A stretch of DNA of 10,491 nucleotides from the NCBI GenBank assembly GCA_043822705.1, contig JBDRBK010000093.1:1-10491 (forward strand), written 5' to 3'. The notes under the pieces were generated by a model, which did no database searches, was not told the DNA's origin, and saw only the letters and a list, made by a program, of their open reading frames with translations. This document shows, piece after piece, positions 28 to 9,806 of the stretch (the first letter of the stretch is position 1; each line of letters opens with the position of its first letter). This DNA is from Fidelibacterota bacterium. Lineage in GTDB: Bacteria; Fidelibacterota; Marinisomatia; Marinisomatales; TCS56. The position numbers and the translations under genes were made by a program.

Positions 28-140
28 GGTTTAAAATTGACTCGTTTTAGCAATGTTTTCTTTCGTATGGAGCGACATAATTTAATTATTAAGATTCAGA
101 AAATCCGGTCATAAAAGAAAGGTTCGGTAGATCAATTGAA

Positions 141-533
141 AGACTGAGTCGGTCTATAAGCCGAGTTTTGTCCACCCGCCAAGCGGCGGGTTGTGTGACC
201 ATTCACCTGGACCCGACCTCACGATCGGGTTCACGCGACCTACCCGTCTCTTATTGTTCCGTCACCGGAACGGAAATGCGGACCACATCTGGAGACTACT
301 TGATCTTGCACCGGGTGGGGTTTACAAGCTCCCGCCGTCGCCGACAGGACTGGTGGTCTCTTACACCACCGTTTCACCCTTACTCCGATAAATCGGGGCG
401 GTCTGGTTTCTGTTGCACTTTCCATGCCCTCGCGGACTCCTCCCGTTAGGAGGCACCCTGTCCTGCGGTGCTCGGACTTTCCTCCCCGAACCGGAGTTAC
501 CGGCCCAGGGCGATCACCCAACCAACTCAGTCT
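141..533 (-). ncRNA. rnpB: RNase P RNA (bacterial type A), about 393 nt
   Basis: Minus strand has GAGGAAAGTCCGAGC near the 5' end and ACAAAACTCGGCTTA near the 3' end (P4 halves). It also has GGAAAGTGCAACAGAAA and AGGGTGAAACGGTGGTGTAAGAGACCACC. The termini AGACTGAGTTGGT / ACCGACTCAGTCT pair as P1. Confidence 0.98.
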
Positions 534-1326: not shown

Positions 1327-1406
1327 AAGATTTTATTGCTGGAGTACTGTCGAGTCGCTTGACTGTCTATTTTCAAACGACACCCCCGGATGGTACGCGA
1401 GTCTTG

Positions 1407-1480
1407 TGGGCGATATCCGACTCGAACGGATGGCCTCTGCGATGTGAACGCAGCGCTCTAACCAGCTGAGCTAATCGCCC
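1407..1480 (-). tRNA. tRNA-Val (anticodon CAC), CCA not encoded
   Basis: Acceptor stem GGGCGAT/ATCGCCC, D arm TAGCTCAGCTGGTTAGAGC, anticodon arm CTGCG-TTCACAT-CGCAG, T arm ATCCG-TTCGAGT-CGGAT. Discriminator A is followed by CAA. Confidence 0.97.
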
Positions 1481-4263: not shown

Positions 4264-4332
4264 CCGGCTGGTGTAACGCCCGGCCGCTAACATCTTGTCC
4301 CGCTGAACCGGTTTTTAAGCGTACTTTCCGCT

Positions 4333-5061
4333 GTGTACAATTCCGATTTATTCACGCTGGAACAGGTATCCTACACGGTCCGCTCAACGGTCATTCTTAA
4401 CCATTTATCGTTTTCCGTAGCCCACGGTGAATTCCTGGGATTGCTGGGACCGTCCGGTTCCGGCAAGACATCCCTGCTGCGCCTGTTCAACGGGCTGGAT
4501 CAGCCTTCCACCGGCAATATCGAATACAGCGGTAAAAGTATCGCTCGCTGGGATATCCGACTGCTGCGGCAGCAGGTGGGAATGGTCTTTCAGGAACCGG
4601 TGATCCTGGCCGGCAGCGTTCGCGACAACCTGCTGCTGATCCAGCGCTGGGATAAGACGCTGGCGCCGGTTTCCGATCTGGATCTGTATCAAACCCTGGA
4701 AAAAGTCGGTCTGCAGACGATCGAGCTGAAGACCGACGCCCGTTCCCTCTCCGGCGGTGAAAAACAGCGCCTGGCCCTGGCCCGGGTGCTGCTGAACCGG
4801 CCGCAGGTACTGCTGCTGGATGAGCCGACCGCCAGTCTCGACCGCAACCTGGCCCGCCGGATCGTCCGCCGGATCGCCGATCTGCACCGGGAAATGAACC
4901 TGACTATCATCATGGTTTCCCACGATCCCGAGCTGGTGCGCCGGTTCGCCTCGCGGGTGCTATTCCTGGCGGCGGGACAGATCGTCGAGGACGGTCCGAT
5001 CGCTATTCTCGACCATCCCGTCACGACCGCGCTGCAGGCCTACCTGGCGGAGGAGCACTGA
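4333..5061 (+). CDS. ABC transporter ATP-binding protein (FetA/YbbL-like)
   Basis: Walker A GPSGSGKT, Q-loop VFQEP, signature LSGGEKQR, Walker B LLLDEPT, H-loop VSHD. GTG start is uncertain. Stop overlaps the permease start. Confidence 0.9.
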   Translation: MYNSDLFTLEQVSYTVRSTVILNHLSFSVAHGEFLGLLGPSGSGKTSLLRLFNGLDQPSTGNIEYSGKSIARWDIRLLRQQVGMVFQEPVILAGSVRDNLLLIQRWDKTLAPVSDLDLYQTLEKVGLQTIELKTDARSLSGGEKQRLALARVLLNRPQVLLLDEPTASLDRNLARRIVRRIADLHREMNLTIIMVSHDPELVRRFASRVLFLAAGQIVEDGPIAILDHPVTTALQAYLAEEH

Positions 5062-5861
5062 TGGAAAATTCCTTCTACGCCATTACCTGGACCGACGTGC
5101 TGGTGGCGCTGGTGCTGATGGCGGTGGCGCTGTTCCTGATCCACTGGTGGAAGATCGGCCTGGAAAAGACTTTATTGATCGGCACCCTGCGAACCTTTGT
5201 CCAGTTGTCGGCCATGGGGTATGTGCTGACCTGGTTTTTCCGCCAGGACGACTGGTTTTTCATGGTCGGACTGGTGCTGATGATGATCCTGATCGCCGCT
5301 TACGAAGGCTACCGCCGGCAGCGACAGCAGCCGATTCCCAATTATTTCCTGATCCTAGCCGGCTCGATGCTGGTGACGATCTGTTTCGTGCTGGGCATGA
5401 TCCTGAAATTCATCCTGCACGTCCAGCCCTGGTATTATCCCTACGCCATGATACCGATCGCCGGAATGATCATCGGCAACGCCCTCAATTCCTCGACACT
5501 GACGGTGAATCGCTTCATCGGCGAAATGAATCACCGCGAAAAGGAAATCGAAATGCTGCTGAGCCTGGGAGCGCCCCCGCGCGCCGCCGTCCACGATGCG
5601 CTGCGCGATTCGATCCGGGCTGCCCTGCTGCCCAATGTCAACGCCCTGATGACGGTGGGACTGGTCCAGTTGCCCGGCGTCATGACCGGTCAAATCCTGT
5701 CGGGGATCGATCCCCTGATCGCCGTGCGCTACCAGATCATGATCATGTATATGTGGGTTACCACCAGCACGTTGATGAATATCCTGGTTTTGGCCCTGGT
5801 GTACCGGCGCTTTTTCACGCCCCAATGGCAGTTAAAACGGGAGCTGCTGCGGGTGGAGTGA
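5061..5861 (+). CDS. fetB: UPF0014/YbbM family ABC permease (FetB-like)
   Basis: Multi-TM protein with RTFVQL..GYVL, PWY.P...IPIAGMIIGNA, GLVQLPGVMTGQILSG.DP..AVRYQI. TGATG overlap with the upstream gene and GGAGGAG RBS. Confidence 0.88.
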   Translation: MENSFYAITWTDVLVALVLMAVALFLIHWWKIGLEKTLLIGTLRTFVQLSAMGYVLTWFFRQDDWFFMVGLVLMMILIAAYEGYRRQRQQPIPNYFLILAGSMLVTICFVLGMILKFILHVQPWYYPYAMIPIAGMIIGNALNSSTLTVNRFIGEMNHREKEIEMLLSLGAPPRAAVHDALRDSIRAALLPNVNALMTVGLVQLPGVMTGQILSGIDPLIAVRYQIMIMYMWVTTSTLMNILVLALVYRRFFTPQWQLKRELLRVE

Positions 5862-5942
5862 GCGAAGAGCCGGGGAGATAAGGGGATGAGGAGCAGAGGA
5901 GAAATCAGGGGCTGAATAGTTTTTAGATTGTTTTGTACCCCT

Positions 5943-6073
5943 GCCACGGTCCAACTAAAAAGTGGGCTGTAATATTCGGACTGGGACACAAGAGCGTAAA
6001 GACAACGATGGTCTACACCCATGGATTAAGATCAAGTACTCATTATATTAAAGGCCCAACCGATTTACTATGA
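5943..6073 (+). pseudogene. intI: 3' remnant of an integron integrase (tyrosine recombinase box II and C-terminus)
   Basis: 5981-6073 translates as LGHKSVKTTMVYTHGLRSSTHYIKGPTDLL*, in register with the IntI consensus LGHxDVxTTMIYTHVLxxxxxGVxSPLDxL*. Upstream in other frames are ATVQLKSG (5943-) and GCNIRT (5965-), matching ATHLLExG and GYDIRT. The VQEL codons are missing. Confidence 0.85.
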
Positions 6074-6094
6074 CAGGGAATTTTTTCAGAGCGT

Positions 6095-6127
6095 GGAATC
6101 TTATCAAACACTGATAAGATTCCTTTT
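6095..6127 (+). terminator. Perfect 12-bp inverted repeat plus T run after the intI remnant (terminator or operator)
   Basis: GGAATCTTATCA-AACAC-TGATAAGATTCC followed by TTTT, 21 nt after the intI stop. Confidence 0.5.
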
Positions 6128-6234
6128 GGATTACTAAAAATAGTCCTTTAACTTTTGTTAGACAATGAATTACGCAAGTATACCCAAGAATGTTACTCAA
6201 CACAAAACCTCACATATAAGCTCTTATCCAAGTC

Positions 6235-6253
6235 GGATAAGCTTATGTTATGT
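6235..6253 (+). mobile_element. Candidate attI simple site
   Basis: GGATAAG, 5 bp CTTAT, then GTTATGT. It lies between the intI remnant and the first cassette ORF. GTTATGT is the exact reverse complement of ACATAAC at the end of that ORF. Confidence 0.65.
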
Positions 6254-6266
6254 TTCCAATTGAACT

Positions 6267-7070
6267 ATGACGAAACTCAGAATCAAAATTCCTGCTGATA
6301 TTGCTGCTGAAGTGATGTTTAATTCAGACAGTACTTGTTGCTTCTGCCGGGAAAGAGGTAAAGCGGTGCAAATACATCATATTGATGAAAATCCAAGAAA
6401 TAACTCAATAGATAATTTATCTGTTCTTTGCCTTCATTGTCATAACGACGCACAAGTGAAAGGCGGGTTTGGTAGAAAGCGAAATGCTTCACTTGTTATA
6501 AAGTATAGAGATGAATGGATTTCAAGAGTTGCTCTCAGAAGGGATTTAGCAGATAAAAGAGCTGTAAATCGGCATGTTGGTTCATCAAGCATAAGTGAAG
6601 TTATAGAAGTAGGGCCAGAACCAACTACACATCATGAAGAATTAAGGGAGCCGCCTATCAATTACATTAACGCGCTTCCTGAATTTAAGGCTGCTTTGTT
6701 AAAGCAGGCACAACCAAAATGGGATACAGGTGTAACTGCCACAATGATACAGGCCAACTATGACTATATAGATTCTCTAACTGGCATCTTAGTCACTTTG
6801 GCCAAATATATCTCACCAAAACAATTCGAAGGCAAAGACCCTCACGAGTATTTTTCCGAAGCGATTTCATTTCGATTCATGTGGCATCGGACAATTAATG
6901 AACCATTTGGGCCAGGGACGGGAGGCACAATTGTAAATGTCCTTGTAGGGGGTGGGGTAATCGGAGATGTCGAAAAAATGGTTGAAGATTTAGTTATGGG
7001 GCTTGTTGGTTACGATGACTCTTTTGATTGGAAAAATTGGCCTAAGCGTTGGCAGGGAAAGGAAACATAA
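6267..7070 (+). CDS. Cassette protein: N-terminal zinc-binding HNH endonuclease domain plus uncharacterised C-terminal domain, 267 aa
   Basis: CCFC...QIHHIDENPRNNSIDNLSVLCLHCH fits the CxxC-HH-N-N-LCxxCH HNH pattern. The C-terminal ~150 aa are not recognised. Confidence 0.8.
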   Translation: MTKLRIKIPADIAAEVMFNSDSTCCFCRERGKAVQIHHIDENPRNNSIDNLSVLCLHCHNDAQVKGGFGRKRNASLVIKYRDEWISRVALRRDLADKRAVNRHVGSSSISEVIEVGPEPTTHHEELREPPINYINALPEFKAALLKQAQPKWDTGVTATMIQANYDYIDSLTGILVTLAKYISPKQFEGKDPHEYFSEAISFRFMWHRTINEPFGPGTGGTIVNVLVGGGVIGDVEKMVEDLVMGLVGYDDSFDWKNWPKRWQGKET

Positions 7071-7133
7071 CAAGGCGCTCGTTGGAACATTTCACCGATA
7101 CACGGCTCGTGCCCCACAGCTTAAACGTTAGCC
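7065..7133 (+). mobile_element. attC site of cassette 1 (69 bp)
   Basis: R'' ACATAAC, 5 bp AAGGC, L'' GCT(C)GTTGG ... L' CCCACAGC, 6 bp TTAAAC, R' GTTAGCC. L''/L' pair with the typical extra C, and there is an inner CCG/CGG stem. Confidence 0.88.
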
Positions 7134-7151
7134 AGATACATGGAGATAAAT

Positions 7152-7928
7152 ATGAAAAGTGAAAAACTTTGGTCCTCATTTGGAAAACTCTCCTTAGTCG
7201 TTGGCGTTATCGCTGGAGTCCTTTACGTCTCGTCTGAAGTAAATAGCAAGCAACCAGATATTTCAGCGATTTGTAGTTATAATGCTTTTGATATTCCCCC
7301 TGATATACACTCAACTCTCCTTACAACTTGGGATTATGATACATGGACGAATTTGGAGACGTTTATCGATACGGTTAAAAGCGAGCGATATTATACTCAT
7401 TCCATAGTCAACCATCTCAGAACCTATGTTCAATCTTTATTCCCTGAAACAGTCAGTGGTGGGATGTCTCCATACTCAGCATTCTTCAGTTTCACGATTA
7501 TCAATGAGGGTGATTTAATTGCCGATGATTTGGTGCTTGATGGACCATCAACTGGAATATGCCGAGTAATAAATAGAGATAATTCTCAAACTGTATCTGA
7601 ATTTAATTATACTCTTGAACTCGGATCCATTCGGCCTGGTGATGAAATCAAGGTATATCTGTGGGCAACGAGTTCGGTTTACAGACCCGAAGGTGACTTT
7701 CGGCTGACGTATTCAGAAGGGCTTGGCGAGATCAGATTTCCGAGTACTCACTACGGTTTCAGACGCTGTGTTGCCGACAATTTGGAACTTATAATTGTAA
7801 TATTAATTTGTGCTTCGCTCATAATTGCGTTAGTCATGGCTGTCTATCTCCCTGACTCATCAAAGGACGAATCAAGCAAAGAACAAAATACTGAAAATGA
7901 CGAAACAGTAAATCCTGCTACTGGCTAA
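7152..7928 (+). CDS. Cassette protein: hypothetical membrane protein with two hydrophobic helices flanking a soluble domain, 258 aa
   Basis: N-terminal LSLVVGVIAGVLYV, C-terminal LIIVILICASLIIALVMAVYL and an acidic tail. GGAGA at 7142-7146 favours ATG 7152 over 7140. Confidence 0.75.
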   Translation: MKSEKLWSSFGKLSLVVGVIAGVLYVSSEVNSKQPDISAICSYNAFDIPPDIHSTLLTTWDYDTWTNLETFIDTVKSERYYTHSIVNHLRTYVQSLFPETVSGGMSPYSAFFSFTIINEGDLIADDLVLDGPSTGICRVINRDNSQTVSEFNYTLELGSIRPGDEIKVYLWATSSVYRPEGDFRLTYSEGLGEIRFPSTHYGFRRCVADNLELIIVILICASLIIALVMAVYLPDSSKDESSKEQNTENDETVNPATG

Positions 7929-8056
7929 CATGCGCCTAGACCAGACGAGGAAACGGCACTATCTGTTATTTAAGAGGGGGTTATGAGTAATCACCACGAA
8001 ATAGTCAATAAACGCATCGGTTTTTCCCCCGCTGTTCAGTCGCAGATCCGGTAAAC
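7923..8056 (+). mobile_element. Degenerate attC site of cassette 2 (134 bp)
   Basis: R'' GGCTAAC, then TGCG-CCTAGACCAG-ACGAGGAAA pairing imperfectly with TTTCCCCCG-CTGTTCAG-TCGCA. The expected R' position reads GGTAAAC instead of GTTRRRY. Confidence 0.7.
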
Positions 8057-8128
8057 ATTCAATAACCCAGACCAATATCTGCAAGCACAATAGGTCAAGC
8101 TCATTTAATCGATTGGCTCCTTAAGGGT

Positions 8129-8166
8129 GATGTGGTGATCCGGTATCAGATTCACCGCCATCTTTT
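8129..8166 (+). terminator. Imperfect hairpin plus TTTT between the cassette array and convergent gpmI
   Basis: GATG-TGGTGA-TC...GA-T-TCACCG-C-CATC followed by TTTT. Confidence 0.4.
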
Positions 8167-8249
8167 GAGAACTGAAACATTTTGGTGTTACACTATAAAA
8201 TGATTGGTGTTCTCAGTGCTCCTGGTGTCTCCGGGTTAAATATTTCCAA

Positions 8250-9806
8250 TCATTCCGCCAACAACACCGGCGCCGTCATTCCAGCCGGAATTTCCAGTCC
8301 CAACAATTTCAGCAAGGTTGGACCGATACTGGGTAAAATTCCTTTTTCCATGATCGAAAACCGGTCGGCGTCACCGGCGATGTAAAAACATTCCACCGGG
8401 TTGAGCGAGTGGCTGGTCCGGACCTGGCCGGTGATGTAATCGATCATCTGGTCGGAATTGCCGTGGTCGGCGGTCAACAGGATTTTACCGTCCAGTTCCA
8501 GAACCCGGCTGACAATTTTACCGACATTCTCATCGACGATTTCCACCGCCCGCCGGGCGGCCTCGAATTCGCCGGTGTGCCCCACCATGTCGCCGTTGGC
8601 GTAATTCACCAGAATAAATGCATAGGGATTATCCGCCAATCGCCGCAGCAATTCCGCAGTTACATTATAAGCTTCCATTTCCGGATGCAGGGCGAAGCTG
8701 GCGGGATCGAAACGGCTGGGCACGTCCACCTGCTCTTCACCCGCGAAGGGAGTCGTCGATTTACCATTAAAGAAGCTGGTTACGTGGCGGAATTTCTGGG
8801 TCTCGGCGATACGTAACTGCCGCAGGCTGGCCGCAGCGATCACCTCGCCCACCAGACCCGACACTTTTTCTGCTTTAATTGCCGTAGTACCCAGCAGGAA
8901 ACTGTCGAATTCATCATAATAGCGGGTCAGGCCGACATAGACCACCTGCGGGCGGCGAATTCTTTGCCCGGGATACCCGGGATCGACAAAAGCGCGGGTC
9001 AACTGGATCGCCCGGTCCTGACGGTAGTTGGTATGCAGAATGACGTCGCCGTCCTGTACGCCGGTGTAATCGCCAATCACATGCGGCGGGATATATTCGT
9101 CGAACATCGGCACTCCCGACGGTGTCTGATCGCCGTCATAGGACGCCCGAATCGCCGCTTCGGCCTGTTCCGCCCGGCGACCATTGCCATCCACGATGCA
9201 GGCGAATGCGGCGTCGGTCAAGGCCCATTGCCGGGCCCGGTCCATACCGTAATAACGGCCCATAACCGTGCCGATGGTACAGTTGCCGATAGCCTTCATC
9301 ACCCGCCGCAGGTGATTCAAATACTCCAGGGTGCTGCGGGGCGGCGTGTCACGGCCGTCAAGAAACGGATGGATTACGATCCGGCCGGACGGATTTTCGG
9401 CGCGGGCCTGATGCATAAACTTGAACAGGTGATCCTGATGCGAATGGACGCCTTCGTCCTGGAGTAAACCGAAGAAATGAAATTGCGACTGATTGGTCCG
9501 CCAGGTGGAAACCAGGTTTTCCCAGGCGGCGGTGCGGTACAAACTGCCGTCGGTCAGTTGATCGTTGATCCGTTTCAGTTCCTGTTTCACGATCCGTCCG
9601 GCGCCCATGCTCAGATGGCCGACCTCGCTGGAGCCCTGAAATCCGGGCGGCAGACCTACTGCTTCACCGGAGGCGTCCAGCAAACCGCGCGGGTATTTCT
9701 CCCGGTAATGATCCAGGTTGGGGGTGGCGGCGGCGGCCACAGCGTTGCCACTGAGATTTTCATTGTAGCCGATGCCATCCATGACGATCAATACGACCGG
9801 TTTCAT
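8250..9806 (-). CDS. gpmI: 2,3-bisphosphoglycerate-independent phosphoglycerate mutase, 518 aa
   Basis: Motifs MKPVVLIVMDG, VGLP..QGSSEVGH, GVHSH, FLDGRDTPP, GRYYGMDR, NYRQDRA, AETQKFRHVT, NYANGDMVGHTG, TADHGN and TSHS. Start moved from 9980 to ATG 9806 (GGAG RBS at 9817-9814). Confidence 0.96.
   Translation of the reverse strand: MKPVVLIVMDGIGYNENLSGNAVAAAATPNLDHYREKYPRGLLDASGEAVGLPPGFQGSSEVGHLSMGAGRIVKQELKRINDQLTDGSLYRTAAWENLVSTWRTNQSQFHFFGLLQDEGVHSHQDHLFKFMHQARAENPSGRIVIHPFLDGRDTPPRSTLEYLNHLRRVMKAIGNCTIGTVMGRYYGMDRARQWALTDAAFACIVDGNGRRAEQAEAAIRASYDGDQTPSGVPMFDEYIPPHVIGDYTGVQDGDVILHTNYRQDRAIQLTRAFVDPGYPGQRIRRPQVVYVGLTRYYDEFDSFLLGTTAIKAEKVSGLVGEVIAAASLRQLRIAETQKFRHVTSFFNGKSTTPFAGEEQVDVPSRFDPASFALHPEMEAYNVTAELLRRLADNPYAFILVNYANGDMVGHTGEFEAARRAVEIVDENVGKIVSRVLELDGKILLTADHGNSDQMIDYITGQVRTSHSLNPVECFYIAGDADRFSIMEKGILPSIGPTLLKLLGLEIPAGMTAPVLLAE

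What the first reader, a model, noticed from the sequence alone, without database searches (positions are those of the whole stretch)
5943..8056. Hidden relic integron with the integrase co-oriented with its cassettes (inverted-integrase architecture)
Seen: between fetB and gpmI the plus strand reads intI 3' fragment, hairpin, attI-like site, cassette 1, attC, cassette 2, degenerate attC. Established: in most integrons intI is divergent from the array with attI at its 5' side. Co-oriented intI with attI past the 3' end is the rarer arrangement known from Treponema denticola and the inverted-integrase clade. Inference: this is a sedentary chromosomal integron of that type, caught decaying into a CALIN (attC cluster without integrase). 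Pipelines would probably report two hypothetical genes and miss the integrase.
Basis: partly seen in the sequence, partly recalled or inferred. Interest (0 to 1): 0.85.

Follow-up and report, generated by a model that had tools for sequence, protein, structure and literature searches.

The report
Satellite integron dock with integrase stub
This is a real but broken gene-capture site (integron): the last codons of its recombinase gene, its docking site and two captured genes sit between two housekeeping genes, but it is one of six such docks scattered through a genome assembly with no intact recombinase, so it was likely a satellite loaded by an enzyme once encoded elsewhere rather than the home locus.

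Summary
The + strand carries an IntI C-terminal stub (5981-6073), a hairpin, an attI (crossover G6247), two cassettes whose ends are 7/7 complementary, attC1 (covariance-model hit at exactly 7065-7133) and a damaged attC2 whose GTT is lost. A third, truncated cassette (8051-8190) was missed. Co-orientation is confirmed by a relative (G004) with the intact integrase and the same downstream platform. 'Sedentary integron decaying in place' is not supported: fetB-gpmI has no such element in 7 of 7 informative relatives; the ancestral locus is after smc, where this genome's intI is deleted. The platform occurs seven times at six loci here and three times in G004. A co-binned sister population has a different gene and attC before the same third-cassette remnant, so this dock likely swapped cassettes. 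Best reading (0.55): a satellite dock served in trans, now frozen; rival (0.33): a whole relocated integron later eroded. The scan reported scattered docks earlier on other DNA of this genome and in other genomes; new here are the longest integrase stub and the cassette swap. New variant of a known kind; interest 0.5.

The parts
5061..5861 (+). fetB-like UPF0014 membrane gene (left native flank)
   Evidence: PF03649 E 8e-80; present in 8 of 8 family relatives
5943..5980 (+). possible further, frameshifted intI remnant (A-T-H...Y-D-I-R codons); marks the approximate left edge of foreign DNA
   Evidence: weak: 84 of 5000 shuffles as good; no similarity further upstream
5981..6073 (+). 3' end of an integron integrase gene (last 30 codons and stop), co-oriented with the cassettes
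   Evidence: TIGR02249 E 8.6e-5; 73% to G004 IntI, best of 79
6095..6123 (+). 12-bp hairpin with T run, likely intI terminator; its arms repeat the TTATC-N7-GATAA motif of the attI region
   Evidence: z -6.9; terminator-like; repeat family D4; similar hairpin in G004
6126..6154 (+). candidate cassette promoter (-35 at 6126-6131, 17 nt, -10 at 6149-6154); weak inference
   Evidence: same spacing in 8 of 8 aligned copies, but no more conserved than neighbouring columns; not called by the consensus scan
6192..6229 (+). two imperfect GTTA-type direct repeats (6192-6198, 6223-6229), candidate accessory IntI sites
   Evidence: sequence and alignment A1; role inferred by analogy with attI1 DR1/DR2 (figure legend)
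6235..6253 (+). attI simple site: L box, 5-nt spacer, R box; crossover between 6247 and 6248
   Evidence: same position is followed by a different cassette in each copy, R/R'' 7/7 in window, G004 master, G004 satellite and C199, 5/7 in C17 and C60
6248..7127 (+). cassette 1; ORF 6267-7070, 267 aa, N-terminal Zn-binding HNH nuclease domain plus helical domain, candidate anti-phage nuclease
   Evidence: HNH_3 E 2.7e-5; ZorE HNH part only; 559 homologues; 0 of 400 other sampled phylum genomes; best folds Cap5/McrA HNH, none with E<=0.001; GC 0.40 vs 0.58 flanks
7065..7133 (+). attC1, mildly decayed (bottom strand is the folded one)
   Evidence: CM hit; rank 2 in genome; related attC with other upstream DNA, starting exactly at 7065, in contigs of two public runs
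7128..8050 (+). cassette 2; ORF 7140-7928, 262 aa, hydrophobic segment near each end, no known family
   Evidence: 1 homologue at 60%; only 'hypothetical protein' clusters; R/R'' 7/7
7923..8056 (+). attC2, degenerate: two arm mismatches and R' GTT lost, predicted non-recombinogenic
   Evidence: 13/15 stem; left end 0 of 152,094; no CM hit; ends resemble the attC of the C199 copy
8051..8190 (+). likely third cassette, truncated: 5' remnant of a gene whose full-length relatives lie on contigs C117 and C186
   Evidence: tblastx E 4e-6 and 9e-5; 85% identical to sister contig C126, where it follows a different ORF and attC and begins with an intact GTT
8250..9806 (-). gpmI (right native flank)
   Evidence: iPGM_N E 1e-58; beside fetB in 7 of 8 relatives

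Best explanation
This is the integrase tail, docking site and cassette row of a co-oriented integron, and it is likely a satellite copy of the docking platform, likely loaded by an integrase made in trans at the smc locus and now likely frozen. Shown: the parts and their order; an intact co-oriented integron with this platform after smc in G004; the same smc locus in this genome with intI deleted and a long array; seven platform copies at six loci here and three in G004; no such element at fetB-gpmI in relatives; a different gene and attC before the same third-cassette remnant in a sister population. Inferred: about 300 bp (intI tail, terminator, promoter, attI) were copied here after the genus split from its relatives; IntI inserted cassettes at G6247 by attI x attC recombination and swapped at least one after the two populations (about 90% identical) diverged; the platform promoter expresses the cassettes; after intI was lost the att sites decayed. 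Least certain step (about 0.3 on its own): the piece travelled as an IntI-made circle, excised between an attC and a secondary site in the intI 3' end and reinserted at a chromosomal GWT (attG) site.
For: G004 has intact IntI after smc followed by the same hairpin, attI and cassettes. G000's smc copy keeps the upstream 62 nt (84%) and the last 87 nt before attI but no intI; G002 has smc directly beside the TetR gene that closes G000's array. Profile search seeded with four copies finds five unseeded copies at E 1e-10 to 1e-21; best hit in the reversed genome E 0.29; 0 of 80 metagenome integron loci. G004 holds a young satellite (91% to its own master over the platform) with an intI tail starting within about 20 nt of the window's, one cassette and an attC junction 8 nt from a native stop codon, coexisting with intact IntI, plus an old third copy. 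No trace of the intI 5' part or its upstream region near any satellite in G000. No IntI over cut-off in G000. Cassette difference at this locus in contig C126, junction at the GTT. A second family shows the same pattern: G009 has an intI-deleted master and a platform copy after marC.
Against: Nothing shows that a full intI was never here: one deletion could remove its 5' part. Whole co-oriented integrons lie at different loci in G024, G038, G009 and G110, and G010 has five intI matches over the family cut-off, so whole-element relocation happens in this order; divergent integrons there also leave attI-side intI stubs (G003, G010). Left edges of copies vary from about 130 to 300 nt before the crossover. 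The window's left junction shows no G|TT, its right end is a truncated cassette, and the C122 copy is flanked by a 20-bp duplication of the host gene end, none expected from IntI insertion. Platform identities are star-like (89 shared columns: window 0.69 to G004, 0.60 to the smc relic), so descent from G000's own master is not shown. The left side of the sister locus is not assembled, and its attC is degenerate (no CM hit, right end 53 of 152,094). The assembly is 93% complete and has 122 kb duplicated at 91%: an intact intI may be missing and the six loci may be split between two populations. The promoter is a weak inference.
Confidence: 0.55

Rival explanations
1. A complete co-oriented integron (extra copy or incoming relative) once inserted between fetB and gpmI, captured cassettes in cis, and later lost the 5' nine tenths of intI; selection or chance spared the promoter and attI. 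Each scattered copy is such a relic.
For: Whole integrons at different loci in related genomes and several intI per genome; mirror-image relics with intI N-terminal stubs beside attI in divergent integrons; variable left edges; star-like platform distances.
Against: Needs at least seven separate insertions in G000 and G004, each followed by a deletion that left no 5' intI or upstream sequence (for G000), whereas both deleted masters (G000 smc, G009) keep the upstream region; the young G004 copy, 91% like its master, already lacks it.
Confidence: 0.33
2. One reading: the lineage's sedentary integron lives at fetB-gpmI and is decaying in place into a CALIN.
For: Anatomy of a co-oriented integron; att sites decayed; precedent in Treponema phagedenis, which keeps attC sites without intI at the syntenic place (PMC3607928).
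Against: No integron at this interval in 7 of 7 informative relatives; the locus shared with G004 is smc, with the long array.
Confidence: 0.06
3. The multiplicity is an artefact of a mixed bin: each population or contaminant has one integron, and the window contig may be chimeric.
For: 6% contamination; 47 blocks (122 kb) duplicated at 91%; no public contig bridges fetB and the intI tail.
Against: Two copies lie on one 90-kb contig (C60); both populations share the DedA copy (C122, C140); G004 (1% contamination) has three copies; error-free short contigs from fetB, the platform and cassette 1 occur in one sample, and one from another study spans the remnant-gpmI junction.
Confidence: 0.05

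Closest known systems
Co-oriented ('inverted-integrase', 'reverse') chromosomal integrons, e.g. Treponema denticola (PMC3607928, parts 1-2 of 4 read; PMC4889954, passages)
   Same: intI transcribed toward attI and in the direction of the cassettes; T. phagedenis keeps attC sites after losing intI
   Different: Treponema loci are described as single and syntenic; here the platform occurs at six loci, and this copy is not at the shared locus. Phylogenetic kinship with Treponema IntI untested.
CALIN (Cury et al. 2016, PMC4889954, passages)
   Same: attC array without a working integrase; intI pseudogene nearby, as in 15 of 279 CALINs in that paper
   Different: Keeps an attI and upstream platform, repeated around the genome; of the four origins listed there (cassette genesis, secondary-site insertion, intI loss, rearrangement) none names a copied docking platform; only one attC here passes a model.
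SALIN / cassettes inserted at attG sites (bioRxiv 10.1101/2022.09.11.507474, passages)
   Same: cassettes outside the main integron, placed by IntI acting elsewhere; excision at nearby genomic sites is shown there and is the step my dispersal model borrows
   Different: attG sites are bare GWT sites unlike attI; here cassettes sit in a true attI copy with intI tail
IMU- or MITE-flanked defective class 1 integrons (PMC3575428, passages)
   Same: an integrase-defective integron moved to a new place
   Different: no flanking inverted-repeat elements or transposase seen here

Membership tests
Integron (complete) | intact IntI tyrosine recombinase beside attI | tested here: not met
   only the last 30 codons; none over cut-off in G000; intact in G004
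Integron (complete) | attI with L and R boxes 4-5 bp apart and GTT crossover | tested here: met
   L 6235-6241, 5-nt spacer, R 6247-6253; constant across copies with different first cassettes; spacing rule from PMC12614218. Sequence evidence only
Integron (complete) | cassettes ending in attC with R''-L''-L'-R' and extrahelical bases | tested here: met
   attC1 CM hit; attC2 degenerate; R/R'' 7/7 twice
Integron (complete) | cassette promoter Pc | tested here: inconclusive
   candidate hexamers conserved in spacing only; no RNA holder listed
Integron (complete) | IntI-dependent recombination at these sites | not testable with these tools
   only indirect: different cassette in sister contig C126
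Inverted-integrase architecture | intI on the cassette strand, attI past its 3' end | tested here: met
   window and intact G004 locus
Inverted-integrase (Treponema) clade | IntI groups with Treponema/Chlorobium/Kuenenia integrases | not tested
   no named Treponema IntI was in my set; in a quick tree of 78 rows G004 IntI falls in a 96-support group with both co-oriented (G024, G038) and apparently divergent IntIs of its order; nearest named relatives 59-61% from Latescibacterota, Bacteroidota, Calditrichota
Sedentary chromosomal integron at this locus | locus conserved across relatives | tested here: not met
   absent at fetB-gpmI in 7 of 7 informative relatives of other genera; no second species of the genus was available except co-binned contig C126
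CALIN | two or more attC sites without intact intI nearby | tested here: inconclusive
   two attC by anatomy, one by my model; IntegronFinder itself could not be run

The most novel reading that the evidence does not exclude
Co-oriented integrons seed their own docking platforms around the chromosome: IntI cuts out a circle carrying the intI tail, promoter, attI and first cassette and drops it at new sites, so one integrase runs a distributed network of independently loading, self-expressing docks; many small CALINs and SALINs would be such satellites rather than dead integrons or random insertions.
Probability: 0.3. Interest if true: 0.75.

Novelty: new variant of a known kind. Interest (0 to 1): 0.5.

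Why it matters
The origin of integrase-less cassette clusters is an open question (PMC4889954 lists four routes). Current tools look for intI and attC, not attI, so satellite docks are invisible to them. If docks are copied and served in trans, an integron is a genome-wide system, captured genes gain several promoter-first positions instead of one, and losing the single integrase freezes them all. This window is a good test case: it keeps the longest integrase stub of the copies in this genome, has an intact cognate integrase in a relative, and shows a cassette difference between two close populations.

Tried and rejected
Rfam on 5800-8300: 1 chance hit, E 3.8. Free folding of both attC sites: no better than shuffles. 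Two strict home-made attC scans missed both window sites. Exact attI pattern: 2 matches in GTDB species genomes, both G004's contigs, 0 in metagenomes. Platform DNA across 233 genomes of the order: apart from one 24-nt match in G220, non-coding platform matches only in G000 and G004; the other matches are to the recombinase-coding part, and only 3 candidates per genome were scored. Metagenome search with the IntI tail sampled 2 of 64 parts and gave no close relative of the platform; of its 80 loci my scan called 9 co-oriented (2 of them duplicates), 9 divergent, 62 unknown. The careful tree did not finish; quick tree only, one row left out. Cassette 1: no plasmid match, 3 viral loci, partial, no fold match at E<=0.001; cassette 2: no PADLOC family. 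No RNA holder listed. Public contigs cover the locus only in short pieces. A fixed GTT breakpoint in intI: G004's satellite alignment starts at a GTT in the G-Y-D codons and has the same 6-mer at both junctions, but the window's stub extends further and lacks it; two other tails starting at model position 268 (G040, G011) gave no attI or ended at a contig edge. The cbb3 oxidase operon displaced from G004's satellite site carries no integron sequence at its new place. C165's hit is a generic recombinase beside a tRNA. Literature: ten-term sets found no paper on multiple or orphan attI platforms ('multiple attI' 0 papers; 'orphan/solo attI' 0 occurrences); the library lacks most subscription papers, and supplements (e.g. 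the integrase tree of PMC4889954) were not read.
Full report
1. The observation. Between fetB (ends 5861) and the convergent gpmI (ends 8250) lies a 2.4-kb stretch of about 40% GC against 58-59% in the flanks. Its first open piece, 5981-6073, reads as the last 30 codons of an integron integrase: TIGR02249 positions 286-313, E 8.6e-5, XerC only E 0.042. At 22 bits against a cut-off of 265, and Pfam E 0.19, annotation would miss it. Among 79 recombinases that I assembled (77 IntI from relatives and metagenomes, plus this genome's XerC and XerD) it matches the IntI of relative G004 best by far (73%, 69.8 vs 44.8 bits). A 12-bp hairpin with a T run follows (z -6.9), then an attI-like site: L box 6235-6241, 5-nt spacer, R box 6247-6253, the geometry given for attI in PMC12614218 (passages).

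Both cassettes have the signature of excised-and-inserted circles: the seven bases at the cassette start are the exact reverse complement of the R'' box at its end (7/7 twice). I built a covariance model from 22 attC sites taken from unrelated metagenome integrons (22 of the 34 sites my scan found, duplicates and some long ones left out). An end-profile scan ranks this site 2nd of 33 in the genome, above the top shuffled score. Public contigs of two studies carry a related attC that starts at 7065 behind other DNA. attC2 (7923-8056) is not hit by the model and neither site folds better than shuffles, but its arms pair 13 of 15 with two extrahelical bases (0 of 5000 shuffles) and its left end beats 152,094 background positions. 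Its R' has lost the GTT, so it is predicted dead. After it, 8051-8190 is the 5' remnant of a gene with full-length relatives on C117 and C186: likely a third, truncated cassette.

2. Relatives. IntI over the family cut-off occurs in 16 of 41 genomes searched, not in G000. G004 (same family, other genus) has a 314-331 aa IntI directly after smc, followed on the same strand by the same hairpin, attI and two cassettes; 270 nt align with the window at 72%. This proves the co-oriented layout. G000 has the same smc locus, with 62 nt of the upstream region (84%) joined to the last 87 nt before attI, intI gone, and a long array (five model hits) ending at a TetR gene that in G002 follows smc directly. 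At fetB-gpmI, 7 of 8 family relatives have both genes on one contig: six have 26-259 bp between them, G002 has a leucine-rich-repeat gene on the other strand, none has the platform. So the shared, 'sedentary' locus is smc; the window is a later insertion.

3. Scattered platforms. A profile seeded with four copies finds seven in G000: window, C199, C17, C122, C140 (the same locus as C122 in a second population), C60 at smc and C60 at 45.8 kb; the five unseeded ones score E 1e-10 to 1e-21, the reversed genome gives E 0.29 at best. Each is followed by a same-strand gene, mostly of low GC; where an attC is visible its R'' matches the bases after the crossover (7/7 in C199, 5/7 in C17 and C60). G004 has three: the master, a young copy (91% over the platform) with intI tail, one cassette and an attC ending 8 nt from a native stop codon, and an old copy. 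In another family G009 has an intI-deleted master and a second copy after marC. No satellite in G000 keeps any 5' intI or upstream sequence. The scan's earlier notes e1-9520115 and e1-8507503 reached this picture on other contigs of this genome, and five notes report the like in other genomes; I read them after my own, and they are not independent support. The attC on C66 (top hit) had no platform hit in my profile searches.

4. Activity at this dock. The bin holds 122 kb of a second population at about 91% identity. Its contig C126 matches the window from 8049 to the end (gpmI 90%, remnant 85%). Directly before the shared remnant it has an intact GTT, a different, degenerate attC (right end 53 of 152,094; no model hit) and a different 29%-GC ORF. 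The two versions part at the crossover, which is what IntI-type exchange gives. Its left side is not assembled, so whether intI was then in cis is unknown.

5. How it likely works. Shown: parts, order, intact counterpart, multiplicity, empty sites, cassette difference. Inferred: the platform supplies a terminator, a promoter (candidate hexamers 6126-6131 and 6149-6154, same spacing in 8 of 8 copies but no more conserved than their neighbours) and attI; IntI from the smc locus loaded cassettes here; with intI lost the sites decay. I put this satellite reading at 0.55. The main rival (0.33) is a whole integron that moved here and lost most of intI: whole integrons do sit at different loci in this order, some genomes have several intI, and divergent integrons leave attI-side stubs too. 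How the piece moved is the weakest step. IntI can insert cassettes at GWT sites and excise them at nearby genomic sites (10.1101/2022.09.11.507474, passages); an attC x secondary-site excision would make a circle of intI tail, attI and cassette. G004's young copy fits (alignment starts at a GTT in intI, ends at an attC junction); the window's left edge, the variable edges and the 20-bp host-gene duplication around C122 do not.

6. Cargo. Cassette 1 is a 267-aa protein with an invariant Cys/His HNH domain and a helical second domain; 559 homologues, named ones from Desulfobulbaceae and Shewanella, none in 400 other sampled genomes of the phylum. Fold neighbours are Cap5 and McrA HNH domains, none at E<=0.001; PADLOC matches cover the HNH part only. 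An anti-phage role is a guess that leans on 10.1101/2024.07.02.601686 (listing and start of abstract). Cassette 2 has one homologue and no family.

7. Known kinds. It works like a co-oriented integron platform (PMC3607928, first half of the text) and is in practice a CALIN with an intI pseudogene (PMC4889954, passages). It is not a complete integron and not the conserved locus. Clade membership was not tested, and the inverted group is paraphyletic in that paper. PMC9668308, PMC8876359 and PMC3575428 were read as passages and describe no multiplied attI platform. My searches (and others listed under Tried and rejected) found none in print; the library is partial and no supplements were read.

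8. Verdict. Real; correctly spotted; wrongly placed as the home locus. The relic alone is a new member of a known kind. The scattered-dock arrangement appears undescribed but has been seen repeatedly by this scan; this window adds the clearest link between dock and integrase and a cassette swap. Novelty: new variant of a known kind. Interest 0.5.

Noticed in passing
G000 contigs C126, C140, C184, C186 (e.g. L057, L061): The bin contains a second population: 47 blocks, 122 kb, duplicated at 91% identity, including a second gpmI.
   Followed up: partly
L056 (G000:C122), about 4300-5960: The platform-plus-cassette insert after a DedA-family gene is flanked by a 20-bp duplication of the gene's 3' end; the right copy matches the empty site in G002, just before tRNA-Pro.
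   Followed up: partly
L052 (G004:C69) 5200-6520 versus L205, L206: G004's young satellite stands where G002 and G005 have the 9-kb cbb3 oxidase operon, which in G004 lies on another contig.
   Followed up: partly
L054 and L056, just before attI: The C17, C122 and C140 copies carry 23 extra bases at the same place before the L box, a second attI subtype with an extra repeat.
   Followed up: no
window 6149-6172 and all platform copies: An imperfect palindrome (TAACT...AGTTA type) overlaps the candidate -10 box and is the best-kept part of the oldest copies; the G024-type platform has one too. Possible protein-binding site.
   Followed up: no
G000:C66 13115-13178 (minus strand): A canonical 64-nt attC with one small low-GC gene amid housekeeping genes; top attC in the genome scan, no platform hit in my profile.
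   Followed up: partly
L226 (G003:C16) and L227 (G010:C16): Divergent integron relics keeping only the first 90 codons of intI next to attI: the mirror image of the window.
   Followed up: partly
L232 (G110:C5): A complete co-oriented integron 79% like that of G024 in a different family, suggesting lateral movement of this type.
   Followed up: no
window 136-530: Non-coding stretch on the minus strand that looks like the RNase P RNA gene (recalled motif, not tested); first 141 nt repeat on contigs C15 and C116.
   Followed up: no
window 1405-1480: tRNA-like sequence on the minus strand (matches C13 at 77%); not run through a tRNA finder.
   Followed up: no
G002:C12 37133-39119 (L036, L047): The fetB-gpmI interval independently holds a low-GC leucine-rich-repeat protein gene on the opposite strand, so the interval tolerates insertions.
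   Followed up: partly
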